A stretch of DNA of 64,000 nucleotides from Candidatus Gottesmanbacteria bacterium (GCA_016214885.1 JACRMP010000005.1:134725-198724), one strand, 5' to 3'. Positions 34,004 to 61,780 are shown, numbered from the stretch's first letter. Program-made: numbers and translations. Notes: a model not told the origin generated them from the sequence alone.

Positions 34004-34084
34004 ATATGAGGGCAAGGAGCAACTCTCCCCGAATCGCTGTTGCTGTTTTTTCCGGCAAGACCCCGGAAGCAAACAAAATTAGTT

Positions 34085-34103: not shown

Positions 34104-34124
34104 TAGTAAATGCGGGGCAAATAA

Positions 34125-39116: not shown

Positions 39117-39117
39117 T

Positions 39118-39261: not shown

Positions 39262-39324
39262 TTGTCAGTCTCCCCTTTTGTGTTTTTTGTCCGGCATAGT
39301 ACACTACGGAGGAATCTTTCCTGT

Positions 39325-42698: not shown

Positions 42699-42793
42699 TA
42701 TTTACTATATGGATCTTGTTGGGCGCGGACAGCATTATCTATTACATTACTCTACGGCGGGCAAAAAATAACGCGTAGGCTTATTTACGCGTC

Positions 42794-48064: not shown

Positions 48065-48070
48065 GGAGAT

Positions 48071-48886
48071 ATGAAAAATCCACTACGACTTTTCCGGCAA
48101 AAAAAGGCTCTTACGTTTGTGATAATAGGAATTGTCGGACTTATTCTTGCGGGATTGGCGAGCTATCAAGTTGTTACGCAAAAACCTACGTTTGTTACCG
48201 TGAGAATAAAAGGGAGCCCCGGTAATTGGTGGTGGGTCACTCCCCGGCCGCCCGATTGGCTAGCAAATTCAGTACACGCGGGAGACAAAGAATATAACGC
48301 ATCAAATAAAGCAATTGCCGAAGTGTTAGCGGTTGATATTTATGATGCCGGCGGTCCTACAAAAGATATATATCTTACGACAAAATTAGATGTCCGTTAT
48401 AACACAAAAACGAAAAAATACCGGTATAAAGGTGAACCTTTGGAAATTGGAGGGCCGATTAGCTTAAGTCTCGGGAGCACTTTTTTCCCCGGAATGGTTG
48501 TGGGTATTTCCGGTGAGGGAACCGTTGCTCCGGAATATAAAGATTTGATTATCCAGGTGCGTCACAAGGATCGTTGGCCATACGAATATGACGCGATAAA
48601 AATCGGCGAAAAGATTGTTGACGGAAACAATCAGCCGATTGCCGAGATTATTGCTAAGTCTCAGTCGCCCGCCATAAGAGAAGTGCAAACGCTCGCTGGT
48701 CAGGTCGTCAAAGGGCTCAGTCCGGTGTTAAATGATTATTATGTAACCATAAGAATTCGCGCAGAGGAACAGGATGGGCAATTTATATACCGCGAGGAAC
48801 AGTATATAAAGGTAGGAAATCAAATGTGGTTGTTGTTCCCCAGTTATAATATGAGCGGCGCACATATTATAGCTATTGAAAAATGA
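48071..48886 (+). CDS. signal-anchored extracytoplasmic protein of unknown function
   Basis: One N-terminal TM (LTFVIIGIVGLILAGLASY) followed by a soluble domain. No recognisable motif. Confidence 0.35.
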   Translation: MKNPLRLFRQKKALTFVIIGIVGLILAGLASYQVVTQKPTFVTVRIKGSPGNWWWVTPRPPDWLANSVHAGDKEYNASNKAIAEVLAVDIYDAGGPTKDIYLTTKLDVRYNTKTKKYRYKGEPLEIGGPISLSLGSTFFPGMVVGISGEGTVAPEYKDLIIQVRHKDRWPYEYDAIKIGEKIVDGNNQPIAEIIAKSQSPAIREVQTLAGQVVKGLSPVLNDYYVTIRIRAEEQDGQFIYREEQYIKVGNQMWLLFPSYNMSGAHIIAIEK

Positions 48887-48889
48887 TTC

Positions 48890-50437
48890 ATGGACAATAC
48901 CGCTACCTATCCTGATATATATGAGCAGGGCCGCTTTGGATTGCAGCTCCAGATGCCCAGCTACCAAACCGAGTTTCCCCACGATCTTCCCTTTGATCCC
49001 GGTGCGACGAGCAGTCTTTTTGAGCTTAATTATTTCCCCTCAACCGCATCAAGGCTATTGCTTTTGATTCCCATTGCGCTGGTGCTGCTTGTATTTTTTT
49101 TCCGGAAACACATCCAGAGCGGGTTCGGGCATATCGGCTTTCTGATAGGAATGATACTTGTTTTTTTTGGTCCCCTGCGACTGCCGTCGTTTTTTCCGTT
49201 TAACACAACTTTAGGACTGGTTAAAGCAATCGGACTATTGCTCACGGGATATGCAGCGGTACTTTACGTATTGAAGCGTGTTAAGTTCGATCTCTTTGAG
49301 ATCCCCTCTCTTGCCCGGGTCGGCGTCTATATTATCAGCTTATTATTATCGGTATTTGTGATGACAAACCCTTCTTTTTTTATTGCTGACTTCGGCATAG
49401 TACTAACCGGCGTGCTGTTTTTTATCCTGGGATTTATTTATTTTACCTGGAGTACGGCCGGACTACTCATTACCACCTGGGCAAGACTGTTGGCTATTGC
49501 TGGCATAATTGTACTTACAATATTCATTGATCGAGGTGTCGGTGCGGAAATCATTTCATTATTGTTTCAGAAGTATGAGAATTTTGTATTCCTGCACGAT
49601 CTTTCCCGCGGGAGAATATTTTCCATTATCGACTTTGAATATTTTATTCCCTGCGTTGCCATTTTTATTGTCGGGTTTAGGCTAAATAAACAGCGCCGGT
49701 CGATTCTGGAATATTATATTTTTACCACAATGTCATTCGTTGCAATTCTTCTAGTGAATTATCGGTACCGGTTTCTTACCTATGTATTGGGTTTAATTTC
49801 AATTTCATTGTTTACCAAAACAATGGCAAAAGCTATCAGAAAACATACTATAATTCTTCTTGTTATTTTAAGCACATTATATTTCGGTTACTCGATTGCG
49901 TTTTTTAGAAGCACAATCCTCGACCGTTTCCTGGTAAGGAATTATTCTGAAGACCAGGTTAGTATTGACCGGCGCCTTGTTATGTATCAGCAGGCGTGGG
50001 AGCTTTTCCAGGAGCGTCCAATTTTGGGAGTAGGCCTGGGGAATTATAAAGACAATGTGCAGATAGTTTATTCCCGGTTTGGCGGGAGAACGTATGAGCC
50101 GTATTATAAGATTTTACAAAACGTATATGCATATCCCCATAACTGGTTTTTGACCGTGTTGGCAGAAAACGGCATTGTGGGATTTGTTGTTTTGATGTGG
50201 ATGCTTGGGATGTTTTTGGTTATGGATATAAGGCTTTATCAGAAGCTCGCTGGTGACCGTCTTCTGGTTTTTGTGACACTTAGTACCATTGGTTGGCTAT
50301 ATGTGTTTGCCAATCTGTTTACCATGATGCACGTGTCGCTTCCTATGGTGATAGTGTTTTGGGCGTGCAGAGGTATGATAGAGAGGATTCATCATGAAGT
50401 ATTCCCCCAGGGAAGAAAACTTAGTGCCCCAAGATAA
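48890..50437 (+). CDS. Wzy/O-antigen-polymerase-like membrane protein
   Basis: At least ten TM helices. The late periplasmic loop ILGVGLGNYKDN...AYPHNWFLTVLAENGIVGF is a Wzy_C hallmark. Confidence 0.55.
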   Translation: MDNTATYPDIYEQGRFGLQLQMPSYQTEFPHDLPFDPGATSSLFELNYFPSTASRLLLLIPIALVLLVFFFRKHIQSGFGHIGFLIGMILVFFGPLRLPSFFPFNTTLGLVKAIGLLLTGYAAVLYVLKRVKFDLFEIPSLARVGVYIISLLLSVFVMTNPSFFIADFGIVLTGVLFFILGFIYFTWSTAGLLITTWARLLAIAGIIVLTIFIDRGVGAEIISLLFQKYENFVFLHDLSRGRIFSIIDFEYFIPCVAIFIVGFRLNKQRRSILEYYIFTTMSFVAILLVNYRYRFLTYVLGLISISLFTKTMAKAIRKHTIILLVILSTLYFGYSIAFFRSTILDRFLVRNYSEDQVSIDRRLVMYQQAWELFQERPILGVGLGNYKDNVQIVYSRFGGRTYEPYYKILQNVYAYPHNWFLTVLAENGIVGFVVLMWMLGMFLVMDIRLYQKLAGDRLLVFVTLSTIGWLYVFANLFTMMHVSLPMVIVFWACRGMIERIHHEVFPQGRKLSAPR

Positions 50438-51697
50438 TTACAGAAGGCGTTTTTGTTTCACCAACACCGCACTACCGATCGATTCCCCTACCCATCCCCA
50501 CAATACAGCCGTTGCTAACCCAACGCCATCCATATCTTTTGCGATAAAAAATAATACTCCAATATTTATTGATGCGCGCAGCACGGTAAGGAAAAGGTTC
50601 TCTTTTGTGTGTCCTGCCATATCAAGAAGTTGCCGGTTTGGCCACGCGATAAGGGCGTAAACAGCGTGTGCGGCAACCAGAATAAATAATATATGATTGG
50701 CAGGGCTGTAGAGTGTGCCAAAGATCATTGATATGATTGGCGCACCGTACGCAAAAAGAATCCCGGAAGGAACGAGCACTGAAACGCCAAGCCACAGCAT
50801 CAGTGTTTTATATATTGACCAAACGGATTTTTTTTGTGCATGTACGCGGCTTGCTGCAGGCAAAAACACAGACAATACCATTTGTGGAACGATATGAGTG
50901 AGCGCAGCGAGTGAAACAGCGGCTGCATAAAATCCCACTGCATCACCACTGCCTTCCGCACGGATGACGTAAAGTAGTCCTATATTTATTGCTGCCGTAA
51001 TGATCTCCGAAAGGCTTACCGGGAGGGTAAAGTTCAGGAATCCGATGGATAGCTGCGGTGTAAATCGTTTGATGACGGACAATTTGACCAATATAAATAG
51101 ATTAATGACGGCCGCAAGGAGCGTGCCCGCCGTATACCCGATTAATGCACCGATTATCCCCCAACGGAGCACCAGCATGCCGATGATAGTAAAGACAAAC
51201 CTCAGCACCATGTCGTTAGCCTCGGTTACATACGATAACCTGACGCGTAAAAGTCCAAGAAGAATGCCTTTCACAAGAAGGGTTGCTGTAGAACCGATGA
51301 ATCCGAACGAGAGTATGCGAAGATATGGCGCTGCATGCTTTGCGTGGATAAGAATGCCGATGGAGTCTGCATGGAAGTAAAGAATGATGCCGACAATACA
51401 CGATGAGACGCCCATGATGGTTATTGCGGAGGCGATTATGGAGTACCTGGCATCTGATTGTGATTTTTTCTCCAGAAAAGAAATAAACCGCGTCACGCTC
51501 ATCGGAATACCGAGGGCGGCTATCGTGGTCAATCCAAGAAAAGTTGAAGTGGCAAGATAATAGTCCCCGAAGTCAGCGACACCAAGCCGGGACACGAAAA
51601 TTTTAAGAATAAAATTAAGCAGCTTTGATCCTCCCAAGATGAGAACGCCCAGTGAAATGCTAGTGACAAAAGACGCAATGAGATCGTTTTTTTTCAC
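50438..51697 (-). CDS. Wzx-like polysaccharide flippase (MOP superfamily)
   Basis: 419 aa, about 12 TM helices; N-terminal LLNFILKIFVSRLGVADFGDYYLA is typical of Polysacc_synt. Confidence 0.6.
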   Translation of the reverse strand: MKKNDLIASFVTSISLGVLILGGSKLLNFILKIFVSRLGVADFGDYYLATSTFLGLTTIAALGIPMSVTRFISFLEKKSQSDARYSIIASAITIMGVSSCIVGIILYFHADSIGILIHAKHAAPYLRILSFGFIGSTATLLVKGILLGLLRVRLSYVTEANDMVLRFVFTIIGMLVLRWGIIGALIGYTAGTLLAAVINLFILVKLSVIKRFTPQLSIGFLNFTLPVSLSEIITAAINIGLLYVIRAEGSGDAVGFYAAAVSLAALTHIVPQMVLSVFLPAASRVHAQKKSVWSIYKTLMLWLGVSVLVPSGILFAYGAPIISMIFGTLYSPANHILFILVAAHAVYALIAWPNRQLLDMAGHTKENLFLTVLRASINIGVLFFIAKDMDGVGLATAVLWGWVGESIGSAVLVKQKRLL

Positions 51698-51743: not shown

Positions 51744-52766
51744 TTATGAGGATTTCGTCGGTACCACTACTCCGAAGTCCGGCTTGTCAGGCAGCGGGAA
51801 ATGGATAGCTGCTTTGTCTTTGAACGCTTCGAGGGCCACCCGGAATATTTTTTTCCGCATCATGGACTTTGCCGTGCACACCATCCAGCAAGCGTCACAG
51901 GAAGCGACACGTTTGGCATATGTTTGATTAGCGAGGATAGTTTCCATGGACTGGGTTTTAATATTTCCCATCTTCCATGGTTTTAGATGGCATGTATATA
52001 CGCTCCCTAATGAATCCATATAAAAGAATCCTGTACCCGCATCACATACCAGCGCTCTTTTTCCTGTTTGGACGAAGGATATAAGCCTTTTGATAAACCA
52101 ACCGCGCATGAGTTCTTTTGGAGACATCCGCGTAAGATGGATTTTTGCAGCTTCTTTAAGACGGAACTCCAGTCGTTCAGGATTCTTCGGACGAAGGTTT
52201 TCTTTTCCGGAACCAAAATAGATAACTGAGTTAGTTGCTACCGTCATAGAAAACTCTACACCAAGATCGTCTGCTAATTTCTGAACCTTGGGAAGTTCAT
52301 CGACGTTTTGATCGATAAGCGTGAAGGCTATTCCGAGGTCTTTGGCACCAACTTCTTTTGCAATACGGAGCGACTCTAAGATTTTTTTATATCCTCCAGG
52401 GATTCTGCGGATGGCATCGTGTGCTTCCCCTATGCCGTCTATGGACACACGGAACGCAAAATTGGGATCTATCTCGAGTATTTTAGGAAGGTGTTTTTTG
52501 ACCATGTGCGGCATGAATCCATTGGTATTCATAATAAACCGGGCGTTTGGGGCGGCCTCCCGCATGTTGCGTACAATTTCGACGATATCCTGCCGGAGGA
52601 ATGGTTCTCCCCCGGTGATGTTTATATCCTTAAGGCTGGACGGGAGCTTTTTATAGTATTCAGCAGGGAGTTCGTTGGGTATTTTATTTTTCCAAATGTC
52701 ACACATAATGCAACGTGAGTTGCAATTGAGCGTTATGGCGATGATTGCCGATGTCGGAGCCTGCAT
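51744..52766 (-). CDS. radical SAM enzyme with C-terminal SPASM/twitch-like Cys cluster
   Basis: CNSRCIMC (CxxxCxxC) near the N-terminus and GGEPFL; additional Cys motifs CDAGTGFFYMD...TCH and CDACWMVC. Confidence 0.65.
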   Translation of the reverse strand: MQAPTSAIIAITLNCNSRCIMCDIWKNKIPNELPAEYYKKLPSSLKDINITGGEPFLRQDIVEIVRNMREAAPNARFIMNTNGFMPHMVKKHLPKILEIDPNFAFRVSIDGIGEAHDAIRRIPGGYKKILESLRIAKEVGAKDLGIAFTLIDQNVDELPKVQKLADDLGVEFSMTVATNSVIYFGSGKENLRPKNPERLEFRLKEAAKIHLTRMSPKELMRGWFIKRLISFVQTGKRALVCDAGTGFFYMDSLGSVYTCHLKPWKMGNIKTQSMETILANQTYAKRVASCDACWMVCTAKSMMRKKIFRVALEAFKDKAAIHFPLPDKPDFGVVVPTKSS

Positions 52767-52780
52767 AATAGACTACTGTA

Positions 52781-53455
52781 TCATATTTTTCCTATAATCC
52801 GGCGGATTAACTGTTTGAGCTTATTAAAACGACTCAAGCCGTACAGATTAAAATGATGATAATCCCACCATGGCCTTTTATCGTTGCTTATGCGCTGTAC
52901 AATGCATAGATTTGGTTGGGATACCTGCAGGAACCGGAAGTCGGGTCTATTGGAGGCGATCCAGCCCAAAACCATTCTGGTTTGCGGTAAGGATGCATCA
53001 TGAAAGAGTAAAAAGCCCCCCGGAGAAAGCAGCTTTTCCAGATAGTAGAAATCGAGAAATATACCGTCAAAAAGATGCCCCCCGTCGATAAAAGCAAAAT
53101 CGAAAACTCTTTTTTTCTTTAGCAACAAGGGCAACGCCCAGTGTGAATACCCGGCGATTAGTGTAGTGTTTTTCCAAAGTCCCAGCGCCTTCATGTTGCG
53201 TATGCCCATGTTGCCATACTTTTTCTGAAATGGGTCAATAACGGTATGCAACGCTCCCGTAGTGCCTGCAATAATAGCGGCTGAATAGCCGTATGCAAAA
53301 CCTATTTCCACGGTGCGTTTGCCCTTCCAGTTGTGGGAAATAAGAAAGTTATATAAGGCGGCCGCTTCGTCATCTGTTATGGAGATGGAGCGTTTATTTT
53401 GTGGTATCCGGATATTTCCGCGGATTTGTTCAAATGACAGTGGCGGTGTTTTCAT
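52781..53455 (-). CDS. class I SAM-dependent O-methyltransferase (TylF/MycF/CmcI-like)
   Basis: VEIGFAYGYSAAIIAG is a Gly-rich SAM loop; FIDGGHLFDGIFLDFYYLEKLLSPGGFLLFHD matches the macrocin-O-MT-like fold. Confidence 0.5.
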   Translation of the reverse strand: MKTPPLSFEQIRGNIRIPQNKRSISITDDEAAALYNFLISHNWKGKRTVEIGFAYGYSAAIIAGTTGALHTVIDPFQKKYGNMGIRNMKALGLWKNTTLIAGYSHWALPLLLKKKRVFDFAFIDGGHLFDGIFLDFYYLEKLLSPGGFLLFHDASLPQTRMVLGWIASNRPDFRFLQVSQPNLCIVQRISNDKRPWWDYHHFNLYGLSRFNKLKQLIRRIIGKI

Positions 53456-53460
53456 ACAAA

Positions 53461-54684
53461 TTATCCGGCAATCCTATCATGATTAATAACAGACATCATG
53501 TAGGCAATTTTTGCCCTCCACGAATTACTCACTGCTAGTGTACGCTGTTTTTGTCTGTACGAACGCGGCCAAGTAGCGCGTACACATTCCCGTATGGCCG
53601 CAGCGAACGCTTTTGGTGTCGCCGCGATCTTAATGAGAGGCACAAGGCGTTTAAGTTCCGGTATCGGGGTTGCAACAACAGGAACCCCCATATAAAAGTA
53701 TTCATGAGTTTTGACGGGAAAACTGAAATGGTTAAAAATATGACGCACATTATATGGTGTTATACCGGCAGAAAAAGTACGCATATAGGAGGGGAGTAAT
53801 TTTCTCGGCTTGTTTCCGAGCATGAAGACATTTGGAAGGTTTGTAAGCGTGTGTATTGACGGCGTTTTTGTATTTGCTATCTGATGCCGGTAGTCATTAT
53901 CTATCGGACCGATAAATATAAATGCATAGTGCGGGAGAAGTTGAATTACTTTTTGCATAAGCGTCACATCAATTCGTTCGCTAATATTGCCGATAAATCC
54001 GATCCGCGGACCCGGGATGCTTATGATATCGCGCGGTACACGCCGAATCCCGTTCCCCATGCGGTAAGTGTCCAGGTCGAACCCTGCAGGCGTGTGATAT
54101 ACAGAGGGGTGAAGGTGTTTGAGTCTATGAAAAAGCGTTGTTGTATTTGTAAATACGTATCGAGAGCCCCGCAGTATCAGTTGTTCGCGGCGCTGCCATA
54201 ACCTGCGGAGTGACGGGACTTCCGATATAAACGCATCGAGGCAATCGTAGACTTTAATCCAACGTTTGGAGAACCATTGCGGGATGACCGCTGTTTGCAG
54301 GGAAAACATCCAGAGCACGGTGCGTTGTCTGATGCGGTATTTTTGACGGAGATAGACGCAAACTGCCCTTGTTTGTATAGCAGCAAAAAAGAAGTTTATT
54401 TCGGCAATAAACCTGATTCGCTGAAACGGGAAGACATACAGCGGTCTGAATATATATAACGAATGGTTATGGGTGAGAAGAAAACCATATTTGTGTTCCT
54501 GCAACAGTGACCGGAAAGTATAACCCTCCCCCACCAGGAAGCAAAGCACAACGTTGTCTTCCGAAAGTATCGTTGCGGTAATGCGTTCATAATCCGCTCC
54601 CCAGGCAAACGGAAGCGCAAATGGGAGGACAATAAGCCGATTCATAATCGTTGGATGTTTTGTCGGGCTGCCTGAGGTGATCAT
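53461..54684 (-). CDS. glycosyltransferase (GT1/GT4-like C-terminal domain)
   Basis: THEYFYMGVPVVATPIPELKRL and a Rossmann-like IGFIGNI. Motifs are weak. Confidence 0.45.
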   Translation of the reverse strand: MITSGSPTKHPTIMNRLIVLPFALPFAWGADYERITATILSEDNVVLCFLVGEGYTFRSLLQEHKYGFLLTHNHSLYIFRPLYVFPFQRIRFIAEINFFFAAIQTRAVCVYLRQKYRIRQRTVLWMFSLQTAVIPQWFSKRWIKVYDCLDAFISEVPSLRRLWQRREQLILRGSRYVFTNTTTLFHRLKHLHPSVYHTPAGFDLDTYRMGNGIRRVPRDIISIPGPRIGFIGNISERIDVTLMQKVIQLLPHYAFIFIGPIDNDYRHQIANTKTPSIHTLTNLPNVFMLGNKPRKLLPSYMRTFSAGITPYNVRHIFNHFSFPVKTHEYFYMGVPVVATPIPELKRLVPLIKIAATPKAFAAAIRECVRATWPRSYRQKQRTLAVSNSWRAKIAYMMSVINHDRIAG

Positions 54685-55892
54685 GCGGTCACACCGGCCT
54701 CACGAATAAACTTTTTTAATTGTGTTATTGCGGTTAACGATCCGTGTGTTTGTTGTATGTAATTCATAATCTTCTTTTTTAAAAGCGTTTTTTGACCGGG
54801 CGGTAACCGGAGAAATAGTTGTATGGCGGTAGCAAGGCCTTTGTAATCGGGTTGCTTGGCCAGGAGCCCCGCAAAGTGCCGGAGGATTTCCTGCGATCCC
54901 CCAGTGGGGAAAGCAATAACCGGCGTTCCGACCGATAACGACTCCAGTGTTACCATGCCGAGCGTTTCCAGTTTTACCGAAGGCATGATGGTCGCATCCG
55001 CGGCCTTGTAAAGGCTCCACATATCATTCGGCGCCCTTTCCCCCATGAAGAAGGTGTGTATGTTGCCCGGCAAAGAAACACGGAGGAGATCCGAAAAATA
55101 ATACACGGCATTTGGATGTACAGGTCCGCAAAAAATAATAGCTATTTTTATATCCGCGGGTATAATCGACAACGCCCGCAATAGGATGTCTTGGCCTTTT
55201 CTTGGCTCAATTCTTGAGGGAACCACTAACAGAAATCTATGCGGATCAATGCCCAGTTGTTTTCTGGCTGCGCGTTTTTCATCTGCGGTTGTTTCGTGAT
55301 ACATGAACGGAACCGAGAGAAGATTTGCCTTGTGTTTGTGAAACAATCCATTGAGTTGTCGCCGGGCAAAGGTGCTAAAACAGCCCACCGTTGAGCGTTG
55401 TATAAGTATGTATTGCAGGAGCCAGTGCAGCCAATGGACGAAGGAGTGTTTTATTTTTCTCAACAAATTTATTTTTCCCTGAACATATGATTTTTTTTCC
55501 AGATACAGAGCTCCGTGATAAAAATAGGCATAAGGAATTCTCAGTGCGCTGCAATACAGATTTGCGGCGAAAGCGCTGTAAACAATATTCCCAATAACGC
55601 CCCCCAGTAAATATTCCTTGCGGATAGACCGGATCAACTGTATTGTCCGGTAGGCTATATAGAAAAAACGGCGCGGATGACCGATGTCGGGAATGCTATA
55701 CGTGATGATTTTTTTGGCATACGGAAACCATTCAGTATCCAATGTCTGTCCGGGGGAAATGCCAGTAAGAACGATAATGTCCGCTTTAAGGCTTGATTGT
55801 GCTGCTGAAAGAACCGCACGGTTCAGCGTGAATGCTCCACCCGTGAACAAATCGTCAAATATAACTAGGATTGCCCTGTTTTTCCGGTCCAT
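54681..55892 (-). CDS. glycosyltransferase family 4
   Basis: ADATIMPSVKLETLGMVTLESLSVGTPVIAFPTGGSQEIL. Confidence 0.7.
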   Translation of the reverse strand: MDRKNRAILVIFDDLFTGGAFTLNRAVLSAAQSSLKADIIVLTGISPGQTLDTEWFPYAKKIITYSIPDIGHPRRFFYIAYRTIQLIRSIRKEYLLGGVIGNIVYSAFAANLYCSALRIPYAYFYHGALYLEKKSYVQGKINLLRKIKHSFVHWLHWLLQYILIQRSTVGCFSTFARRQLNGLFHKHKANLLSVPFMYHETTADEKRAARKQLGIDPHRFLLVVPSRIEPRKGQDILLRALSIIPADIKIAIIFCGPVHPNAVYYFSDLLRVSLPGNIHTFFMGERAPNDMWSLYKAADATIMPSVKLETLGMVTLESLSVGTPVIAFPTGGSQEILRHFAGLLAKQPDYKGLATAIQLFLRLPPGQKTLLKKKIMNYIQQTHGSLTAITQLKKFIREAGVTA

Positions 55893-55901
55893 AGTACATG
55901 G

Positions 55902-56795
55902 TTATTGCATGCGGTTGGTTAGGTAGGACAGGTATGACTGGTAAAATAATCGTCCGAATAATCCGAACGTATGGAAGTGTTCGTACGGCGTGTTGTCGTT
56001 ATAAATTGCCCTAGGCGTATAATTACATCCTTTACATATGTCGATTTGTGACCGGTTGCCTTTCCAGAGCTGATGGCGCGCCTCGTTGAATTTTTTAGAA
56101 AACCATACGGACAGCACATGGTGTTTTTTTACATTTCCCATCACTTGTTTCCCAAAGTAGTCGTCACAACACTGTACCGTATTCCCCTCCCAGTTTATGA
56201 CCATGGTAGAGCTTGGCCGGAAACATGGCTTGTTGAGAGGTTTTTTAGGGACAGTAAGGTGGGTGAGTAATCCACCACGATTGTCAAAGAATGCATTGTT
56301 TACCCGTACGGCAATCCGGCGTCTCCATGTGGGGTGATGTTTTTCCACCCATGCCAATACTTCGGCAACATTTGTGTTCACCTTGCCGTCATATTGGCTG
56401 ACATAGACAAGATCAACTCCTGCGCGGATGAGCGAGGTGAGGATATCTGTTTTCAAAAAATCGCCGTTGGTGTTGATTTTGACAAAGGTGTGGGGACACC
56501 GTTTTTTGAGCAGCGTTAAAAGTTTTGGCAGACGCTTGTCCAGTAGTGGCTCACCATACATATGAAGAGACACACGTCCGTCGTAGCCCATATCAGCCAG
56601 ATCGCCGACGATTTTTGTAAACACTTTATCGGGAAGAAAGCCCTTCCCTCTTCCGCGATAAATATTCGGACAAAACGAGCACCGGCGGTTACATATTGAG
56701 GTTGTTTCAATTTCTATGCCGGTGAATACCGGAAACCGTTTGTATTTGATCAGATTTCCCAGGTAAAAATAGAATAAGGTAATAAACTGTTCCAT
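55902..56795 (-). CDS. radical SAM enzyme with C-terminal Cys-rich (SPASM-like) region
   Basis: CNRRCSFC (CxxxCxxC), HMYGEPLL, and C-terminal CCDDYFG and CKGCNY. Confidence 0.6.
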   Translation of the reverse strand: MEQFITLFYFYLGNLIKYKRFPVFTGIEIETTSICNRRCSFCPNIYRGRGKGFLPDKVFTKIVGDLADMGYDGRVSLHMYGEPLLDKRLPKLLTLLKKRCPHTFVKINTNGDFLKTDILTSLIRAGVDLVYVSQYDGKVNTNVAEVLAWVEKHHPTWRRRIAVRVNNAFFDNRGGLLTHLTVPKKPLNKPCFRPSSTMVINWEGNTVQCCDDYFGKQVMGNVKKHHVLSVWFSKKFNEARHQLWKGNRSQIDICKGCNYTPRAIYNDNTPYEHFHTFGLFGRLFYQSYLSYLTNRMQ

Positions 56796-56803: not shown

Positions 56804-57442
56804 TTAAAAGCGTCTTATGATATGGCTAAGCATTGCGGCGTTGCTGTCTTTTTGCTCCACAAGAATAATATCCGCGGTTGTTTTTTTCTGTATGCTATTT
56901 TTTATTTTTTTATTATCCACCAGCACCACATCAGTATTGTTAAGCACGTCCTCGGTAGCGATTTGTGACTCCTGGAAGGGAAATTCAGGAATGTCAGATG
57001 AAATTTGAACTATGCATGCTTTTTCTGCAAAGATTCCCGGAAGAAATAGCCAATGAGGCCGTATGGTAGCGCCTGTTTCCCAAACCACCAACGGGCGCCC
57101 CTTAACAGATCCCTTAAGAATTATATCCGGATGAAATAACCGGACAACATACAGCCAGCAGATCAATAAAAATGTGTTGAGCTGGTGAACGTGCTGGTTC
57201 CGCTCGAATGGGATAAGTCCGAACGGATGAAAGATCATTACATTTTTCCTGGTAAGCAACAGAAGCTTAAAGCCAACGATAGCCCTCCGCAGGCTCAGGG
57301 CGTGTTTGTATGTGTAGATTGAGGTGCCCGTGATGAGGAGTATGTTGTGTTCTTTTTTGAGGAGGTGAATGTGTTTTGCCCACTTGGCAGGGTTTTGACA
57401 CGCGTCATCAGCAAGCAGAATAAGTGTGTTTTTTGATTTCAT
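56804..57442 (-). CDS. hypothetical protein
   Basis: 212-aa ORF that overlaps its neighbours by 4 nt, consistent with the operon. No motif recognised. Confidence 0.35.
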   Translation of the reverse strand: MKSKNTLILLADDACQNPAKWAKHIHLLKKEHNILLITGTSIYTYKHALSLRRAIVGFKLLLLTRKNVMIFHPFGLIPFERNQHVHQLNTFLLICWLYVVRLFHPDIILKGSVKGRPLVVWETGATIRPHWLFLPGIFAEKACIVQISSDIPEFPFQESQIATEDVLNNTDVVLVDNKKIKNSIQKKTTADIILVEQKDSNAAMLSHIIRRF

Positions 57443-58356
57443 GTATGGTTAAAACGGAACCCCCGTGTGTGAACAGCAAGCCGGATTGCGTCGAGTTGGA
57501 ATAATGCTTTGGCTCTCCAGCAATAATGGAGGCAGATAATATTCTGGCGTGCCCGTCGTATTGTATCAAATTGAATGACATATCGCTTTTTGGGAAGCGG
57601 GGTGCGCTCCCTTTTTGCAATCACGCTTCCGACGATGACTTCATCGGATCCGAATTGATTATCAAAGTATGTTGTTTTGAGAATTCCCAGAAGCCTGTTC
57701 ATTGTGGAGAGCTCGAAAAGTGATTTGTCAGGTATACACACCAGCCCGGTGTTAAATAGTGGATTTGCGCCGGGTGCGCTGCTATGGACGAGCAGCTGTC
57801 GGTATGAGTGGTATAAATCTAAATAGCATTCGTCATCGGTATGTTTACGGGTGCGTTCCCTGGGTTCGTATTCGAGGTGGAGCACCTTATTTGGATTGCT
57901 GAGCCATTGTGCTATTTCCGGCGATTTTTGGAAAAAAAGAATATCGGCATCATAAATAATAAACCGTTTAAACGGGCAAACAAGCTTCAGCAGAAGCTTC
58001 CATTTTATGACGGGCGCCTCAGGGGAATCCATAAACTTTTTGATATTCGGGTAGGTCTGCAGAATTGTTTTTGCCCGCCGTAATAGCTGTCCCCTCGTGA
58101 TGATGGTGATGGTAAAATGCCCGGCAAGGCGCTGTTTGTCCTCTGCGGTAAGTGTACCGTCATCAACAACATATAACGGGAGATTTTGGTTAATGGCAAA
58201 AAACAACGAATATACAGCATAGATATACATGGTTACATCCCTGTGACAAAGAAGCGATGCGACACCGGTTTTTCTTGACGGAGCTTTGGCGTCTAAGAAA
58301 ATCCGGGGAAGAGTCGAAAAAATCCCTTGTTTAATGCTATTTTTCAGTTGATACAT
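57439..58356 (-). CDS. putative GT-A-fold glycosyltransferase
   Basis: LYVVDDGT and FIIYDADILFF (DXD-like), consistent with a nucleotide-diphospho-sugar transferase fold. Confidence 0.4.
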   Translation of the reverse strand: MYQLKNSIKQGIFSTLPRIFLDAKAPSRKTGVASLLCHRDVTMYIYAVYSLFFAINQNLPLYVVDDGTLTAEDKQRLAGHFTITIITRGQLLRRAKTILQTYPNIKKFMDSPEAPVIKWKLLLKLVCPFKRFIIYDADILFFQKSPEIAQWLSNPNKVLHLEYEPRERTRKHTDDECYLDLYHSYRQLLVHSSAPGANPLFNTGLVCIPDKSLFELSTMNRLLGILKTTYFDNQFGSDEVIVGSVIAKRERTPLPKKRYVIQFDTIRRARQNIICLHYCWRAKALFQLDAIRLAVHTRGFRFNHT

Positions 58357-58439: not shown

Positions 58440-59645
58440 TTACTGTGCGTTTAACGCATCAATGATACGGGGGGTAATATACTCCGCAATCATTTTATTT
58501 CCCTCCGGTGATATATGGGCAAAATCAAGGTAAACAGGTTGATCTACATTTGAAAAGACGCCGCTTGCATCAACAAAGTCGGGAAGAGCCAATTCGGTGA
58601 CTTTTTTTGTAATTTCTTTGTATAAACCGGCCGATTCGGTTTTAGAATTTATTACTTCGGTTTCGTCGTCGGTAAGTTTTTTGGTTGCTATGGATGGCTG
58701 CCAAATAAACAGCGTCTTAAACCCGTAGATTTTACTCAGATTTCGCACCATGGCTATGTTTTCTGCGTATATACGTGTAACGTCATCAGGCAATGCTGCG
58801 GTGTTGTGAAATTTAATAAGCCTGTTGTTTTCCTCATTATTCCCTGTACGCAGGATGCGGAAGAACTTAATCGGGTAATCGATTACTTTAATTCTTGATG
58901 CAAGCGAACGCGCCGCTTGCGAAAGATATGAAAAATCGAGCAATGACTGATTGCGGTACGGTACATGGAATGAATAGATGTTTCCCAGTCTGGTACGTAT
59001 TATGTCTTCATACACTGTCTGATTACCAGGAGAATATGTATAAAGATAGCGGGAGTAAAGCTCATTTATCCCGTCATAAAAAACAACCATATCAGGAATA
59101 TTTCCCTGTTTGAGTTGTATGAGTAGGCTTGCTAGCTCCTGTGATGAGTTATAGGCGCTGACGCCAAAGTTAGTAATCCGGTGCACCGGCGCCTTGGTGT
59201 TTAATAATTTGGCAACATGTGACGGAACCGTTTCCCCGTCTGATACGTTCGTACCGAATAGCGTAGATCCGCCGAACATGAAAATTTTTATTTGCTGATG
59301 AGAGATTGTAGCAGGGTTTCCTGTCGTTTCCCGTATACCTAAATCATTAATTGTAATGTGCGGGGTGTTGAGTGGTTTAGGGGTAAAGCTTAATAATGGA
59401 TGGTACTGCGCCTGTATTTTTTCGCTTTCGGTAAGCCACCATTTATTACTGTCTTTTGCATAAAACCAATCATTAGTCATTAGCCCCATTTTTTCTTTGT
59501 ATTCGTACACGCGCCAAAAAACATACCGGGAGAATGATATTGTCTGCAAAATCATCTCCAGAAAAAGTAATCCGGCAATGATTTTTGTTGCGCGCAGGCT
59601 CCGGGAAGTATTTTTTATCGGCAGTGAGCCGGGAGTGTTTTTCAT
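58440..59645 (-). CDS. SGNH/GDSL-family hydrolase or acyltransferase, N-terminal TM
   Basis: IKIFMFGGSTLFGTNVSDGETVPSHVAKLL and C-terminal block DFAHISPEGNKMIAEYI. Confidence 0.5.
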   Translation of the reverse strand: MKNTPGSLPIKNTSRSLRATKIIAGLLFLEMILQTISFSRYVFWRVYEYKEKMGLMTNDWFYAKDSNKWWLTESEKIQAQYHPLLSFTPKPLNTPHITINDLGIRETTGNPATISHQQIKIFMFGGSTLFGTNVSDGETVPSHVAKLLNTKAPVHRITNFGVSAYNSSQELASLLIQLKQGNIPDMVVFYDGINELYSRYLYTYSPGNQTVYEDIIRTRLGNIYSFHVPYRNQSLLDFSYLSQAARSLASRIKVIDYPIKFFRILRTGNNEENNRLIKFHNTAALPDDVTRIYAENIAMVRNLSKIYGFKTLFIWQPSIATKKLTDDETEVINSKTESAGLYKEITKKVTELALPDFVDASGVFSNVDQPVYLDFAHISPEGNKMIAEYITPRIIDALNAQ

Positions 59646-60343
59646 AGGCTGCTGCGTTTTTTTCCGTTATACCGTCCTTTTTCCAGTTCTATAACCCGGT
59701 CGCAGTTCTGCCGGACAAATTCCATCCAGTGCGACACAAGGATAAATGTCTTGTGTTGGCTGATAAGCTTTTGGAGGGCGCGTTGTGATTTGCGTTTAAA
59801 TTTTGCGTCACCTACCCCAAGGCTTTCATCGAGTATTAAAATATCCGGATTGGAGTGGAGGGCAATCGAAAATCCAAGCCGCAGCTTCATGCCAAAAGAA
59901 TAGGTAAACAGCGGCACATCGATAAACTGTCCTATATCTGCAAACGCAATAATCGCCGGCAATGCGCGCTCTATCTGCCGTTTAGACATCCCAAGTAACA
60001 TGCCGTTAAGGTACGCATTTTGCAGTCCAGTAAGATCAGGGTGAAACCCTGCTTCCAGATCAATGAGTGATACCGTTTTTCCGTTACGCACCACCGTGCC
60101 GGTTGTGGGATGGGTAATTCCGGCAATTATTTTTAACAAAGTTGTCTTCCCCGCTCCGTTTGGTCCAACAATCCCTACGCGTTCGCCTTTCCGGATAGTC
60201 AGATTGATATCTCGCAGCGCCCAGAAAATTTCGTTTCGGCCGCGGGTCAGTTTTTCGATGAGCGTGGGCTTATCGTGATGTATTTCATACCGCTTACTTA
60301 CATTCGTAAGCTGGATGGCAATTTCAGGATTTATCTTTTTCAT
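59642..60343 (-). CDS. ABC transporter ATP-binding protein (Wzt/TagH-like polysaccharide exporter)
   Basis: Walker A GIVGPNGAGKTTLLKIIAG; signature FSFGMKLRLGFSIAL; Walker B ILILDE. Confidence 0.85.
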   Translation of the reverse strand: MKKINPEIAIQLTNVSKRYEIHHDKPTLIEKLTRGRNEIFWALRDINLTIRKGERVGIVGPNGAGKTTLLKIIAGITHPTTGTVVRNGKTVSLIDLEAGFHPDLTGLQNAYLNGMLLGMSKRQIERALPAIIAFADIGQFIDVPLFTYSFGMKLRLGFSIALHSNPDILILDESLGVGDAKFKRKSQRALQKLISQHKTFILVSHWMEFVRQNCDRVIELEKGRYNGKKRSSL

Positions 60344-61110
60344 AGCCAGTCGTCAAACAGTTTTGATTCAGATTGGAATACCCAGATACCGATAATGAGG
60401 GTGGCTATGGCAATGGTGCCGTTGCATCCTATCATGGCAAGACCAGGAGCGGGGTAGTTGATGAAGGCATTTTGAAAAAATTGAACTACTGAAGTCATGG
60501 GGTTTAACCGCCAGATAAAAAGTAAAGCCGGAGGCACCGAATAGATGGAATAAACGATTGGCGTGAGGTAGAACCATACGATAAGACCTGCCTGGGTAAA
60601 AAACGTAATATCCCGGTACCGCACGTTGAGTGCCGCCGTAAGCAGGCTGGCTCCCGAAGTAAAGATGATGAGCAGGATAAATCCTAAAATGAATGAGCCC
60701 ACCCGTTCCATCGAAAACATTTGATAATAGAGGGTAAACGGCAGGATGAGTGCAAATGAAAGCAATAGGTTTATCGCGTTTGAAAGTACTATGGACAACG
60801 GAATTATTGCGTGCGGAAATTTGGATTTTTTTATAAGGGAGCGCTCGTTAACGATGGACGATGAGCCTTTGGCAAGGGAAAGCGAGAAAAAATTCCAGGT
60901 CAGCAGTCCGGTAAATAAGTACAAGTTATAGTGGGGTATCGGTTCTTTGATGAAAAGGGGGAAAATAAATCCTATAACTATCATTTGAATGAGAGGGTTA
61001 ATGAATACCCATAAGAATCCAAAAAGGGTGTGTTTGTACCGCGTGGTTAACTCTTTGTGGGTCATGCTGATAAGCAGTTCCCAAAAATGGTGGAGCGCGT
61101 AGCGTTTCAT
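60340..61110 (-). CDS. ABC-2-type permease (Wzm/TagG-like)
   Basis: 256 aa with six TM helices. Its start overlaps the ATPase gene by 4 nt. Confidence 0.75.
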   Translation of the reverse strand: MKRYALHHFWELLISMTHKELTTRYKHTLFGFLWVFINPLIQMIVIGFIFPLFIKEPIPHYNLYLFTGLLTWNFFSLSLAKGSSSIVNERSLIKKSKFPHAIIPLSIVLSNAINLLLSFALILPFTLYYQMFSMERVGSFILGFILLIIFTSGASLLTAALNVRYRDITFFTQAGLIVWFYLTPIVYSIYSVPPALLFIWRLNPMTSVVQFFQNAFINYPAPGLAMIGCNGTIAIATLIIGIWVFQSESKLFDDWL

Positions 61111-61780
61111 GCACCGTATTATACGATATGCTGCACGATTAGGTTATACTGGTGTATTATCGGGTACATATATGATCTCGGTGTTTTATCACTTGACCGT
61201 CATGGTCATTTTTTTGGTATCCCTTCCGCTGCAGGTGTTGATTGCCATACTCATTATGATGATGAGCGGGCTTCCCATTGTCTTCCGGCAGAAGCGCACC
61301 GGCAAGAACGGCGCACCTTTTGTTATGTATAAATTCCGTACGATGGTGAATGGCGCGGAAAAGAAGAAACCGGCTTATGCACACCTTAATGAATCACAGG
61401 GTCCTGCATTTAAGATTCGGAAAGATCCCCGTTTTACGGGAATCGGCGCTTTTTTGAGCCACACCGGGCTTGATGAACTTCCCCAGCTATTTAATGTATT
61501 GCGGGGCGATATGGCCCTTATTGGTCCCCGCCCCCTCCCTATCGCTGAGGCTCAAAAATTAAAACCATGGATGAGGGTGCGTGAACAGATACTCCCCGGC
61601 ATCATCTCCCCCGCCATATTAACCGGTAAATATCATGAGAACTTTGATTCGTGGATGCGCAGTGATGTTTCCTACGTCAAAAAGAAAAACGCCATAGGCG
61701 ACGTACGGCTGTTTTTGCAGAGTTTTTCATTTCTGGCAAGACTGTTTGTCCGGAGTATGGGCATGAAGCAGAGCACTTGA
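61109..61780 (+). CDS. initiating sugar-phosphate transferase (Bac_transf / WbaP-PglC-like)
   Basis: MSGLPIVFRQKRTGKNGAPFVMYKFRTM and DELPQLFNVLRGDMALIGPRP. Confidence 0.85.
   Translation: MHRIIRYAARLGYTGVLSGTYMISVFYHLTVMVIFLVSLPLQVLIAILIMMMSGLPIVFRQKRTGKNGAPFVMYKFRTMVNGAEKKKPAYAHLNESQGPAFKIRKDPRFTGIGAFLSHTGLDELPQLFNVLRGDMALIGPRPLPIAEAQKLKPWMRVREQILPGIISPAILTGKYHENFDSWMRSDVSYVKKKNAIGDVRLFLQSFSFLARLFVRSMGMKQST

What the first reader, a model, noticed from the sequence alone, without database searches (positions are those of the whole stretch)
51744..56795. Two radical SAM/SPASM-like enzymes embedded among glycosyltransferases
Both proteins carry the CxxxCxxC radical SAM core plus extra C-terminal Cys clusters. 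They sit between a Wzx-like flippase, a methyltransferase and GT4 genes, with no RiPP precursor or maturase context. Radical SAM enzymes in glycan loci can catalyse C-methylation, epimerisation or unusual sugar rearrangements, so their target here is open.
Basis: partly seen in the sequence, partly recalled or inferred. Interest (0 to 1): 0.55.

Follow-up and report, generated by a model that had tools for sequence, protein, structure and literature searches.

The report
Two sugar-editing radical SAM enzymes
A candidate-phylum bacterium carries two iron-sulfur "radical SAM" enzymes inside a cell-surface sugar-polymer gene cluster; one is a clear relative of the antibiotic-pathway sugar oxidase BtrN, with a change that hints at a different reaction, and the other belongs to a widespread, unstudied family that nearly always sits between sugar-transferring enzymes.

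Summary
Two radical SAM proteins lie at 51744-52766(-) and 55902-56795(-), in an 11-gene minus-strand array running Wzm to Wzx. This array is part of a ~28 kb glycan locus of a Candidatus Gottesmanbacteria contig.

Both proteins are twitch-type, with four conserved auxiliary Cys and so one auxiliary cluster. Neither is a full SPASM protein. Neither has a B12 domain, an RRE/PqqD domain or room for a precursor peptide gene.

rSAM2 is a full-length homologue of BtrN (PDB phmmer E 7e-38, 32% identity). All seven cluster Cys and the equivalent of BtrN Arg152 are kept. It is not a BtrN orthologue. The residue after the second auxiliary Cys is Cys210, where BtrN has Phe188. Across 80 relatives, Cys-type members almost never neighbour an aminotransferase (1/39), while non-Cys members often do (14/41). 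Cys-type members sit among glycosyltransferases. My leading hypothesis is a redox-neutral sugar epimerase, and it is unproven.

rSAM1 belongs to an uncharacterised family found in at least 168 species of more than 10 phyla, including Segatella copri. It is typically sandwiched between GT4 glycosyltransferases. A WchF/Cps2T-like, DUF1972-type GT lies downstream in 46/80 loci.

Verdict: a new variant of a known kind, of moderate interest.

The parts
55902..56795 (-). rSAM2: BtrN-family twitch radical SAM enzyme, Cys210 ('CC') subtype. RS cluster C35/C39/C42; auxiliary cluster C191/C209/C254/C257; R173 = BtrN R152.
   Evidence: Pfam; PDB phmmer vs BtrN 4m7t E 6.6e-38 over aa 23-259; BLASTP 32% identity, E 1e-43; family alignment.
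51744..52766 (-). rSAM1: twitch radical SAM enzyme of a widespread uncharacterised GT-coupled family. RS cluster C15/C19/C22; auxiliary Cys C241/C259/C290/C293, plus the non-universal C297.
   Evidence: Pfam/NCBIfam, no model above its cut-off; conservation; AF2 pLDDT 92.4; Foldseek top hit BlsE, TM 0.65; 168 GTDB species.
54681..55892 (-). GT4d: GT4 glycosyltransferase, conserved immediately downstream of Cys-type rSAM2 homologues.
   Evidence: Pfam Glycos_transf_1 E 9e-27; syntenic in L001/L002, L171 and L173 at 32-39% identity.
56804..57442 (-). unk212: orphan 212-aa protein conserved just upstream of rSAM2. Weak resemblance to the N-domain of a GT-B glycosyltransferase.
   Evidence: No Pfam hit; only 3 representatives among 1.84e9 proteins; syntenic homologues in L001 and L173; BLASTP to the TuaH-like GT N-domain E 0.001.
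57439..58356 (-). unk305: rare GT-A-fold, GT8-like glycosyltransferase with an invariant DxD motif (D136/D138).
   Evidence: 8 homologues only; alignment; AF2 pLDDT 85; Foldseek hits LARGE1, UGGT, XXYLT1, glycogenin, LgtC; weak GT8 Pfam hit for the L001 homologue.
53461..54684 (-). TuaH-like GT-B glycosyltransferase, conserved upstream of rSAM1 in close CPR relatives.
   Evidence: Pfam Glyco_trans_1_4; NCBIfam TuaH 73.6 bits, below cut-off; synteny in L007-L010, L012, L015, L017, L059.
52781..53455 (-). Methyltransf_24 (TylF-like) SAM-dependent O-methyltransferase, inserted between the TuaH-like GT and rSAM1.
   Evidence: Pfam E 4e-12. Absent at this position in the syntenic relatives.
50438..51697 (-). 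Wzx-type flippase (Polysacc_synt), last gene of the minus-strand array.
   Evidence: Pfam; syntenic downstream of rSAM1 in CPR relatives.
58440..59645 (-). SGNH/GDSL-like protein, one of three paralogues in the locus.
   Evidence: Pfam weak GDSL hits; homologue next to an unk305 homologue in L167.
59642..61110 (-). Wzt (59642-60343) and Wzm (60340-61110): ABC-transporter glycan export pair, first genes of the array.
   Evidence: Pfam ABC_tran and ABC2_membrane; NCBIfam TagH/Wzt-like.
61109..61780 (+). Initiating polyprenyl-phosphate phosphoglycosyl transferase (Bac_transf).
   Evidence: Pfam E 7e-48; NCBIfam EPS_sugtrans 181 bits.
36163..37218 (+). GT4a: WchF/Cps2T-like (DUF1972-type) GT4. Its orthologues are the commonest downstream neighbour of rSAM1 homologues in other phyla.
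   Evidence: Pfam; NCBIfam Cps2T 51.9 bits; 46/80 loci; DUF1972 in 13 of 122 neighbour proteins.
45678..50437 (+). GT4b, GT4c, DUF4330 protein and Wzy2: block co-inherited with TuaH-GT/rSAM1/Wzx in close CPR relatives.
   Evidence: Pfam; synteny at 38-74% identity in L007-L010, L012, L015, L017, L059.
37419..40853 (+). NodU-like carbamoyltransferase, FdtA-like ketoisomerase and DegT-family aminotransferase: a self-contained amino-deoxy-sugar module 15 kb from rSAM2.
   Evidence: Pfam; NCBIfam. The FdtA and DegT genes overlap by 4 nt.

Best explanation
Both genes encode twitch-type radical SAM enzymes, with one SAM-cleaving [4Fe-4S] cluster and one fully Cys-ligated auxiliary cluster. They tailor carbohydrate during assembly of a cell-surface glycan. 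They are not peptide maturases, B12 methylases or heme enzymes.

rSAM2 is a member of the BtrN family. The shown parts are homology, cluster ligands and the Arg. The inferred mechanism is as follows. The RS cluster cleaves SAM, and 5'-deoxyadenosyl radical abstracts the H on a carbinol carbon of a sugar. The substrate is probably phosphate-linked, because the Cys-type subfamily additionally fixes R49 and R88. In BtrN the resulting radical is deprotonated and oxidised through the auxiliary cluster to a ketone, which an aminotransferase then aminates. The window enzyme belongs to a subfamily in which the residue next to the second auxiliary ligand is an invariant Cys (C210) instead of Phe/Tyr/Pro/Ser. 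This subfamily has lost the aminotransferase linkage and is embedded among glycosyltransferases. I therefore propose that C210 returns an H atom to the opposite face, giving a redox-neutral epimerisation as in NeoN/HygY. The epimerised residue would then be used by, or made on the product of, the flanking GT8-like and GT4 enzymes.

rSAM1 is a member of a separate, widespread family that sits between a GT4 and a WchF/Cps2T-like GT4, close to the initiating phosphoglycosyl transferase. It most likely edits a sugar of the early lipid-linked intermediate between two glycosyl transfers. The reaction type is unknown.
For: Superfamily and twitch architecture: with motif definitions from PMC6231123.

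BtrN homology: E 6.6e-38, full length; 32% identity, E 1e-43; BtrN is the only full-length PDB match. BtrN chemistry is taken from PMC9012708 and PMC10337720.

Subfamily split:
- 0/40 Cys-type versus 11/43 non-Cys loci have an aminotransferase within 3 genes.
- 1/39 versus 14/41 within 5 kb, Fisher p = 3e-4. With at least 6 kb of flank the counts are 1/15 versus 8/16, p = 0.015.
- two separate aminotransferase-linked non-Cys clades, one of which contains BtrN.
- the Sodalis BtrN orthologue, beside a DOI synthase, has Tyr at this position.

Context of Cys-type members: GT4, Wzy and ABC genes, with no aminotransferase or nucleotidyltransferase among the top families. The block GT8-like / 212-aa protein / rSAM2 / GT4 is conserved in four independent contigs. 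R49, R88 and E30 are fixed only in the Cys-type. A Cys H-donor is documented for NeoN (PMC10991966). The HygY reference title cited in that paper states that mutating one Cys turns the epimerase into a dehydrogenase.

rSAM1: 168 species, more than 10 phyla. GT4a-like GT downstream in 46/80 loci. Among neighbours, GT4 31/122 and DUF1972 13/122, with no PqqD and no NDP-sugar enzymes in the top 25 families. GT / rSAM / GT4 order in Segatella copri DSM 18205. Best structural match is the sugar decarboxylase BlsE. There is no RRE: the alignment to SkfB starts at SkfB residue 110. Tight operon with no precursor ORF.
Against: - No biochemistry exists for either subfamily.
- The Cys210/aminotransferase association is not phylogenetically corrected. 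It rests on about two or three independent non-Cys clades, and many contigs are short.
- I could not align rSAM2 to NeoN or HygY, and I could not measure the distance from C210 to the SAM 5'-carbon, because no model coordinates were available. That this position faces the substrate rests on my memory of anSME Asp277 following ligand Cys276.
- R173, the putative BtrN base, is still about 90% conserved in the Cys-type, which also fits a dehydrogenase.
- A DegT aminotransferase exists 15 kb away in the same locus.
- For rSAM1, the closest PDB sequence-profile match is a peptide-modifying enzyme (SkfB). Similarity to every characterised enzyme is low (about 20% identity), so neither substrate nor reaction can be read from homology. 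PMC6231123 itself warns that function is hard to predict in this subclass.
Confidence: 0.62

Rival explanations
1. rSAM2 is an isofunctional BtrN-type dehydrogenase. It oxidises a sugar or cyclitol hydroxyl to a ketone. The ketone is then aminated by the locus's DegT aminotransferase (39744-40853), or kept as a keto sugar, or re-reduced.
For: Full-length BtrN homology with all cluster ligands and the R152 equivalent retained. A DegT gene lies in the same super-locus. Non-Cys relatives are clearly aminotransferase-coupled.
Against: The window DegT overlaps an FdtA ketoisomerase gene by 4 nt and is 15 kb away on the other strand, so it already has its own keto-sugar source. Cys-type members have 1/39 aminotransferase neighbours. 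The block conserved around rSAM2 contains only GTs. Position 210 is Cys in all 78 Cys-clade members, against Phe in BtrN.
Confidence: 0.27
2. One or both enzymes are protein or peptide maturases of the anSME or sactisynthase type. Their target would be encoded elsewhere, or would be a neighbouring protein such as a GT or a sulfatase-fold enzyme.
For: The rSAM1 profile's best PDB sequence match is SkfB, followed by CteB and anSME. Sulfatase-fold genes lie near rSAM2 or unk305 homologues in L001 and L167. One rSAM1 homologue (L005) lies about 5 kb from a PqqD/ScmC cassette.
Against: There is no RRE/PqqD domain or gene and no small ORF space. Only one auxiliary cluster is present. No PqqD appears among 220 neighbour proteins. 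There is no sulfatase gene in the window locus. rSAM2's only full-length structural relative acts on a cyclitol. GT synteny holds across more than 10 phyla.
Confidence: 0.06
3. rSAM1 is a BlsE-like decarboxylase, or another radical lyase, acting on a uronic-acid residue. For example, it could convert a glucuronosyl unit added by the TuaH-like GT into a pentosyl unit.
For: BlsE is the top Foldseek hit (TM 0.65/0.67) and the top single-sequence PDB hit. The upstream GT resembles the teichuronic-acid GT TuaH. Many conserved Arg/Lys residues (R58, R120, R221, R237) could bind a carboxylate or phosphate.
Against: The NCBIfam BlsE model scores 49.6 against a cut-off of 400. The sequence alignment to BlsE covers only the radical SAM core. 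No UDP-glucose dehydrogenase is seen in the locus. In most phyla the conserved partner is a WchF-like GT, not a TuaH-like one.
Confidence: 0.1
4. The enzymes are cobalamin-dependent C-methylases (GenK/Fom3-type) or heme-pathway enzymes. JGI labels rSAM1 homologues 'Fe-coproporphyrin III synthase', i.e. AhbD.
For: JGI names on several rSAM1 homologues. A weak AhbD/NirJ NCBIfam hit.
Against: No B12-binding domain is found, and the radical SAM core starts at residue 6-29 of proteins only 297-340 aa long. AhbD scores 69.8 against a cut-off of 500, and NirJ 63 against 515. The context is entirely glycan genes.
Confidence: 0.01

Closest known systems
BtrN (2-deoxy-scyllo-inosamine dehydrogenase, butirosin pathway, PDB 4M7T/4M7S)
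   Same: rSAM2 aligns over its full length (32% identity, E 1e-43). It has the same abridged radical SAM core and a twitch domain with four Cys ligands (rSAM2 C191/C209/C254/C257). It shares the YGEPLL SAM motif and the SNRGG/DNRGG Arg. A GT4 gene is adjacent, as in aminoglycoside clusters.
   Different: There is no DOI synthase, deacetylase or adjacent aminotransferase. The residue after the second auxiliary ligand is Cys, not Phe. R49 and R88 are extra invariant residues. There is an extra ~22-aa N-terminus and ~38-aa C-terminus. The gene sits in a Wzm/Wzt-linked glycan operon of a CPR bacterium.
NeoN / HygY (twitch radical SAM sugar epimerases of aminoglycoside pathways)
   Same: The proposed logic is the same: H abstraction at a sugar carbon, then H-atom return from a protein Cys. 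NeoN Cys249 is documented in PMC10991966. The HygY reference title there states that the Cys mutant is a dehydrogenase. All are small twitch-type enzymes.
   Different: No sequences were available here for alignment. The Cys210 equivalence is untested. The NeoN and HygY substrates are free pseudo-oligosaccharides, not glycan intermediates.
BlsE (cytosylglucuronate decarboxylase, PDB 7VOB)
   Same: It is the best structural match of the rSAM1 model (TM 0.65, E 8e-16). It is of similar size and acts on a sugar.
   Different: Identity is 19%. The sequence match covers the core only. NCBIfam scores 49.6 against a cut-off of 400. rSAM1 has a conserved four-Cys auxiliary site and a different genomic context.
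SkfB / CteB / anSME (peptide- or protein-modifying twitch/SPASM enzymes)
   Same: Same SPASM/twitch superclass. SkfB is the best profile match for rSAM1 (E 9e-20), including the C-terminal hairpin and CxxC.
   Different: rSAM1 lacks the N-terminal RRE. It lacks the second auxiliary cluster of CteB and anSME. It has no precursor peptide or sulfatase partner, and it is syntenic with GTs.

Membership tests
Radical SAM superfamily | CxxxCxxC motif ligating the SAM-binding [4Fe-4S] cluster; Pfam PF04055 above the gathering score; GGE-type SAM motif | tested here: met
   rSAM1 C15/C19/C22, 66.5 bits, 'TGGEPF'. rSAM2 C35/C39/C42, 49.2 bits, 'YGEPLL'.. The Cys are invariant in both families.
SPASM subclass (two auxiliary clusters) | Seven-Cys motif CX9-15GX4C-gap-CX2CX5CX3C-gap-C (PMC6231123) | tested here: not met
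   rSAM2 has only four conserved C-terminal Cys, plus C210. rSAM1 has four invariant Cys plus C297, which is present in 57/80 members. Pfam PF13186 still hits because it also covers twitch domains.
Twitch subclass (one auxiliary cluster) | One Cys before and one after the beta-hairpin (CX9-17GX4C), plus two Cys after the following helix | tested here: met
   rSAM2: C191-x17-C209 ('GNTVQC') and C254xxC257. rSAM1: C241-x17-C259 ('GSVYTC') and C290xxC293.. The AF2 model of rSAM1 shows the hairpin at 247-268. Cluster occupancy itself cannot be tested here.
BtrN family (homology) | Full-length sequence similarity to BtrN, including the auxiliary ligands and Arg152 | tested here: met
   rSAM2 only: E 6.6e-38; 32% identity over 239 aa; R173 aligned to R152. 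rSAM1 matches BtrN only in the N-terminal core.
BtrN orthologue (DOIA dehydrogenase function) | Pathway context (DOI synthase, aminotransferase, deacetylase) and a non-Cys residue after the second auxiliary ligand | tested here: not met
   None of these genes is adjacent. rSAM2 has Cys210 and falls in a different NJ clade from BtrN. The true orthologue in Sodalis has DOI synthase and Tyr.
NeoN/HygY-type radical SAM epimerase | Active-site Cys that donates H to the substrate radical | tested here: inconclusive
   The candidate C210 is invariant in 78 Cys-clade members and anti-correlated with aminotransferase neighbours. No alignment to NeoN/HygY and no 3D distance could be obtained.
Class B cobalamin radical SAM methylases (GenK, Fom3) | N-terminal B12-binding domain | tested here: not met
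   No PF02310 hit. The radical SAM core begins at residues 6-29.
BlsE (TIGR04466) | NCBIfam equivalog score of at least 400 | tested here: not met
   rSAM1 scores 49.6 bits.
AhbD / NirJ heme-pathway radical SAM enzymes (JGI label) | NCBIfam equivalog cut-offs (500 / 515) | tested here: not met
   69.8 and 63.2 bits. There are no heme genes nearby.
RiPP maturases / anSME | RRE (PqqD-like) domain or partner, precursor peptide or sulfatase substrate gene, usually two auxiliary clusters | tested here: not met
   No PqqD hit. Gaps of 83 nt or less. One auxiliary cluster. The SkfB alignment starts after its RRE.
DesII-type (no auxiliary cluster) sugar radical SAM enzymes | Homology to DesII; absence of a twitch domain | not tested
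   No DesII sequence or model was available. The presence of a conserved auxiliary site argues against this type.

The most novel reading that the evidence does not exclude
Radical chemistry would be a routine, overlooked step of bacterial surface-glycan assembly. The Cys210-type BtrN homologues would be radical SAM epimerases working on phosphate-linked (nucleotide- or polyprenyl-linked) sugars. The rSAM1 family, present in more than 10 phyla including human-gut Segatella, would be a glycosyltransferase-coupled editor that alters a sugar of the lipid-linked intermediate between two glycosyl transfers. This would yield residues that no NDP-sugar pathway supplies. BtrN of antibiotic pathways would then be a late offshoot of this glycan-tailoring family.
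Probability: 0.25. Interest if true: 0.78.

Novelty: new variant of a known kind. Interest (0 to 1): 0.52.

Why it matters
Sugar diversity in bacterial polysaccharides is normally explained by nucleotide-sugar pathways together with glycosyltransferases. Radical SAM enzymes are known in aminoglycoside and nucleoside antibiotic sugar tailoring (BtrN, NeoN, HygY, BlsE). I found no characterised case in O-antigen or capsule-type assembly in the literature available here.

Two families that are syntenic with GTs would point to unrecognised sugar modifications in cell envelopes. One is found in at least 168 species, including culturable gut Segatella. These modifications would be oxygen-independent and suited to anaerobes and CPR bacteria.

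The one-residue switch in the BtrN family (Phe/Tyr/Pro/Ser versus Cys), tracking aminotransferase linkage, gives a directly testable rule for dehydrogenase versus epimerase outcome.

The work also flags a systematic mis-annotation: rSAM1 homologues are labelled 'Fe-coproporphyrin III synthase'.

Tried and rejected
- **NCBIfam.** No model reaches its cut-off for either protein, so no name could be transferred.
- **Rfam and tRNA scans.** Nothing was found in the window.
- **Literature.** Searches for radical SAM with O-antigen, polysaccharide, DUF1972 or twitch epimerase found nothing relevant. The BtrN structure paper, the SPASM/twitch review and the HygY paper are not held. BtrN Arg152 as the proposed base and anSME Asp277 therefore rest on my memory. 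A search for Asp277 found nothing.
- **unk212.** There are no Pfam or PDB hits, and only three relatives in 1.84e9 proteins. The similarity to a GT-B N-domain is weak.
- **Strict unk305/rSAM2 linkage: rejected.** unk305 homologues occur beside Wzm/Wzt without a BtrN-like gene in L167 and L168.
- **Window DegT as the partner of rSAM2: rejected as the leading idea.** It is paired with FdtA and is distant.
- **Plasmid search.** It gave only distant hits. These were useful as the Segatella and Sodalis examples.

Full report
**Setting**

The window is 100% identical, for both proteins, to a 200,878-bp contig of Candidatus Gottesmanbacteria (CPR/Microgenomates). dnaN and dnaA lie at 31341-34072(-), and GC skew changes sign at about 32 kb. 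Immediately to the right, from 34125 to 61780, is a large glycan locus. It contains:
- two Wzy-like polymerases;
- a WchF/Cps2T-like GT4 (GT4a, 36163-37218);
- a NodU-like carbamoyltransferase;
- an FdtA ketoisomerase overlapping a DegT aminotransferase;
- a GT2;
- three SGNH/GDSL-like proteins;
- several GT4s and a DUF4330 protein;
- a minus-strand array of 11 genes with gaps of -4 to 83 nt, in the order Wzm, Wzt, SGNH, unk305, unk212, rSAM2, GT4d, TuaH-like GT, Methyltransf_24, rSAM1, Wzx;
- a divergent phosphoglycosyl transferase.

**Observation**

Both ORFs exist as described, and both pass the Pfam Radical_SAM and SPASM gathering scores. No NCBIfam model reaches its cut-off. There is no B12-binding domain and no PqqD/RRE. 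The intergenic gaps leave no space for a precursor peptide gene.

**Twitch, not SPASM**

The SPASM motif has seven Cys for two clusters. Twitch is the truncated one-cluster form, with one ligand before and one after a beta-hairpin and two after the next helix (PMC6231123).

In the rSAM2 family (40 sequences) the invariant Cys are C35/C39/C42 plus C191, C209, C254 and C257. In the rSAM1 family (80 species) they are C15/C19/C22 plus C241, C259, C290 and C293, each present in 79-80 of 80 members. C297 is present in only 57/80. Both proteins carry the GX4C hairpin signature. Both are therefore twitch enzymes.

**rSAM2 is a BtrN homologue**

phmmer against all PDB chains returns only BtrN, with E 6.6e-38 over residues 23-259. 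BLASTP gives 32% identity over 239 aa, E 1e-43. A family profile finds no other full-length PDB match.

BtrN is the twitch radical SAM dehydrogenase that oxidises 2-deoxy-scyllo-inosamine to the ketone. Its Cys4 auxiliary cluster is thought to accept the electron (PMC9012708, PMC10337720). The 'SNRGG' Arg of BtrN is R152, which by my memory of the structure paper is the proposed base. It aligns with rSAM2 R173, which is at least 90% conserved.

**rSAM2 is not a BtrN orthologue**

In the 80 loci kept, plus earlier ones, I tabulated the residue after the second auxiliary ligand. This is rSAM2 C210 and BtrN F188.
- With Cys at this position, 0 of 40 loci have an aminotransferase within three genes. 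With Pro, Ser, Phe, Tyr, Ala or His, 11 of 43 do.
- Measured by distance, the counts are 1/39 versus 14/41 within 5 kb (Fisher p = 3e-4). With at least 6 kb of flank they are 1/15 versus 8/16 (p = 0.015).
- A neighbour-joining tree shows at least two separate non-Cys, aminotransferase-linked clades. One is a marine Ser/Pro clade with the order HMGL-like, cytidylyltransferase, rSAM, SDR, class I/II aminotransferase. The other is a Phe/Tyr/His clade that contains BtrN, in which DegT genes lie next door.
- The Sodalis praecaptivus plasmid orthologue sits beside a DOI synthase and a PIG-L deacetylase and has Tyr at this position.

The window protein falls in the Cys clade. Its nearest relatives (45-50% identity) share the block GT8-like / 212-aa protein / rSAM2 / GT4 in four independent contigs. 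Neighbours of Cys-type members are mainly GT4s, Wzy, GT2, ABC exporters and other radical SAM genes. No aminotransferase or nucleotidyltransferase appears among the top families. The Cys-type also fixes R49, R88 and E30, which vary in non-Cys members. This suggests an anionic, probably phosphate-bearing, substrate.

**Mechanistic reading for rSAM2**

The shown parts are homology, ligands and context. The inferred part is H abstraction at a sugar carbinol carbon, as in BtrN.

Two outcomes are possible.
- (a) BtrN-like oxidation to a ketone.
- (b) H-atom return from C210 to give an epimer. NeoN uses Cys249 in this way (PMC10991966). HygY becomes a dehydrogenase when one Cys is mutated, according to the title of the reference cited in that paper.

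The position after the post-hairpin ligand is likely to face the substrate. In anSME that ligand is Cys276 (PMC6231123), and the next residue, Asp277, is the proposed catalytic base (my memory, not verified here). I favour (b) at roughly 0.4 against 0.3 for (a). R173 conservation and the non-independence of the counts keep (a) alive.

**The rSAM2 block**

unk305 has only eight homologues and an invariant DxD motif. Its AF2 model (pLDDT 85) matches GT8/GT24-type GT-A transferases such as LARGE1, UGGT, XXYLT1, glycogenin and LgtC. Its homologues also occur next to Wzm/Wzt without a BtrN-like gene, so it belongs to the ABC-transporter pathway rather than strictly to rSAM2.

unk212 is an orphan, with three relatives among 1.84 billion representatives. 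It has a weak colinear resemblance to the N-domain of the TuaH-like GT.

**rSAM1**

The family is large. There are 1326 hits in the protein search and 168 GTDB species. These span Patescibacteria, Acidobacteriota, Nitrospirota, Verrucomicrobiota, Gemmatimonadota, Eisenbacteria, Latescibacterota, Planctomycetota, Cyanobacteria, Bacteroidales (including Segatella bryantii DSM 11371 and S. paludivivens DSM 17968), Desulfobacteraceae and a Thermoplasmata archaeon.

No characterised relative is close.
- By single sequence, BlsE matches with E 1e-10 over the core only.
- By profile, the order is SkfB (E 9e-20), then CteB, BlsE and anSME. The SkfB alignment starts at residue 110, after its peptide-binding domain.
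- By structure (AF2 pLDDT 92.4), the order is BlsE (TM 0.65), SkfB, CteB, anSME, SuiB and MoaA.

Context is consistent across phyla. A homologue of the window's GT4a lies directly downstream in 46/80 loci. This GT carries a DUF1972 domain, and its best NCBIfam hit is the Cps2T/WchF rhamnosyltransferase. Another GT4 is often upstream, and the phosphoglycosyl transferase is often next. Among 122 neighbour proteins from 37 diverse loci, 31 are GT4s, 13 carry DUF1972, 6 are Wzy, 5 are other radical SAM proteins and 3 are PGTs. No PqqD or NDP-sugar enzyme is in the top 25 families. Segatella copri DSM 18205 shows the order GT / rSAM / GT4 / nucleotidyltransferase.

Close CPR relatives share the window's TuaH-GT / rSAM1 / Wzx / Wzy2 / DUF4330 / GT4c / GT4b block. 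Others place rSAM1 between the Wzy1 and GT4a homologues, which in the window lie 15 kb away.

The simplest reading is that rSAM1 modifies a sugar of an early lipid-linked intermediate between two glycosyl transfers. The chemistry cannot be read from homology, and PMC6231123 warns that sequence networks do not predict function in this subclass. JGI's label 'Fe-coproporphyrin III synthase' for many members is a mis-annotation: the AhbD model scores 69.8 bits against a cut-off of 500.

**Comparison and novelty**

rSAM2 is a member of the BtrN family by homology, but it fails the tests for BtrN function (context and residue 210). It represents a Cys-type subfamily that is not described in the literature I could search. 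rSAM1 is an uncharacterised twitch family. Neither is a new kind of enzyme. The linkage of both to glycosyltransferases of surface-glycan assembly, and the residue-210 rule, are new variants worth testing.

**Verdict**

Interest is moderate (0.52). The most novel reading that the evidence does not exclude is radical epimerisation or editing of lipid- or nucleotide-linked sugars as a widespread step in glycan assembly. I give it about 0.25 probability.

Noticed in passing
window 5022-12986 (-): A complete-looking mevalonate pathway cluster: diphosphomevalonate decarboxylase, GHMP kinase, thiolase, HMG-CoA synthase-like protein and HMG-CoA reductase. This is an unusual isoprenoid route for a bacterium and is relevant to polyprenyl carrier supply.
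   Followed up: no
window 21972-30375: A type IV secretion-like or conjugation-like set: a TrwB/VirD4-like coupling ATPase, a PrgI-family protein, a TraG/VirB4-like P-loop ATPase and a large M23 peptidase protein.
   Followed up: no
window 31341-34125: dnaN and dnaA, together with a GC-skew sign change at about 32 kb, mark the probable replication origin. The glycan locus starts right next to it.
   Followed up: partly
window 16001-21327: Two large ORFs have no Pfam match at E <= 1e-5: 541 aa on the + strand and 1205 aa on the - strand.
   Followed up: no
L128, L137, L140, L147, L153, L160, L164 (marine metagenome contigs): A recurrent marine cassette has the order HMGL-like aldolase/synthase, CTP_transf_3 cytidylyltransferase, Pro-type BtrN homologue, SDR, class I/II aminotransferase. 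It looks like an undescribed CMP-activated amino-sugar or acid pathway that uses a radical SAM dehydrogenase plus a transaminase. JGI labels some members as Kdo8N transaminase.
   Followed up: partly
L170 (Sodalis praecaptivus pHS1, NZ_CP006570.1 391558-396131): An insect-associated Sodalis plasmid carries 2-deoxy-scyllo-inosose synthase, a PIG-L deacetylase, a GT and a BtrN orthologue (37% identity to BtrN). This is an aminoglycoside-like (paromamine-type) cluster in an enterobacterium.
   Followed up: partly
window 41655-43843 and 58440-59645: The single glycan locus holds three SGNH/GDSL-like paralogues. GDSL-like genes also recur next to rSAM1 and rSAM2 homologues: 4 of 122 rSAM1 neighbours, and at position -1 in L003. 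They may be O-acyl transferases or esterases of the glycan.
   Followed up: no
L005 1-3526: One rSAM1 homologue (P0066, 50% identity) lies about 5 kb from a SynChlorMet-like RiPP cassette with ScmC, PqqD and another radical SAM gene. This is probably coincidental, but it is the only peptide-type context seen.
   Followed up: no
L047, L050, L056 and other rSAM1 and rSAM2 loci: Additional, unrelated radical SAM genes (Radical_SAM_N2-type and B12-binding type) recur within two genes of both families. Several radical enzymes per glycan locus seems common in uncultivated anaerobes.
   Followed up: no
window 61109-61110: The annotated start codons of Wzm (- strand) and the phosphoglycosyl transferase (+ strand) overlap head-to-head by 2 nt. 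At least one true start is probably further in, or the divergent promoters lie inside coding sequence.
   Followed up: no
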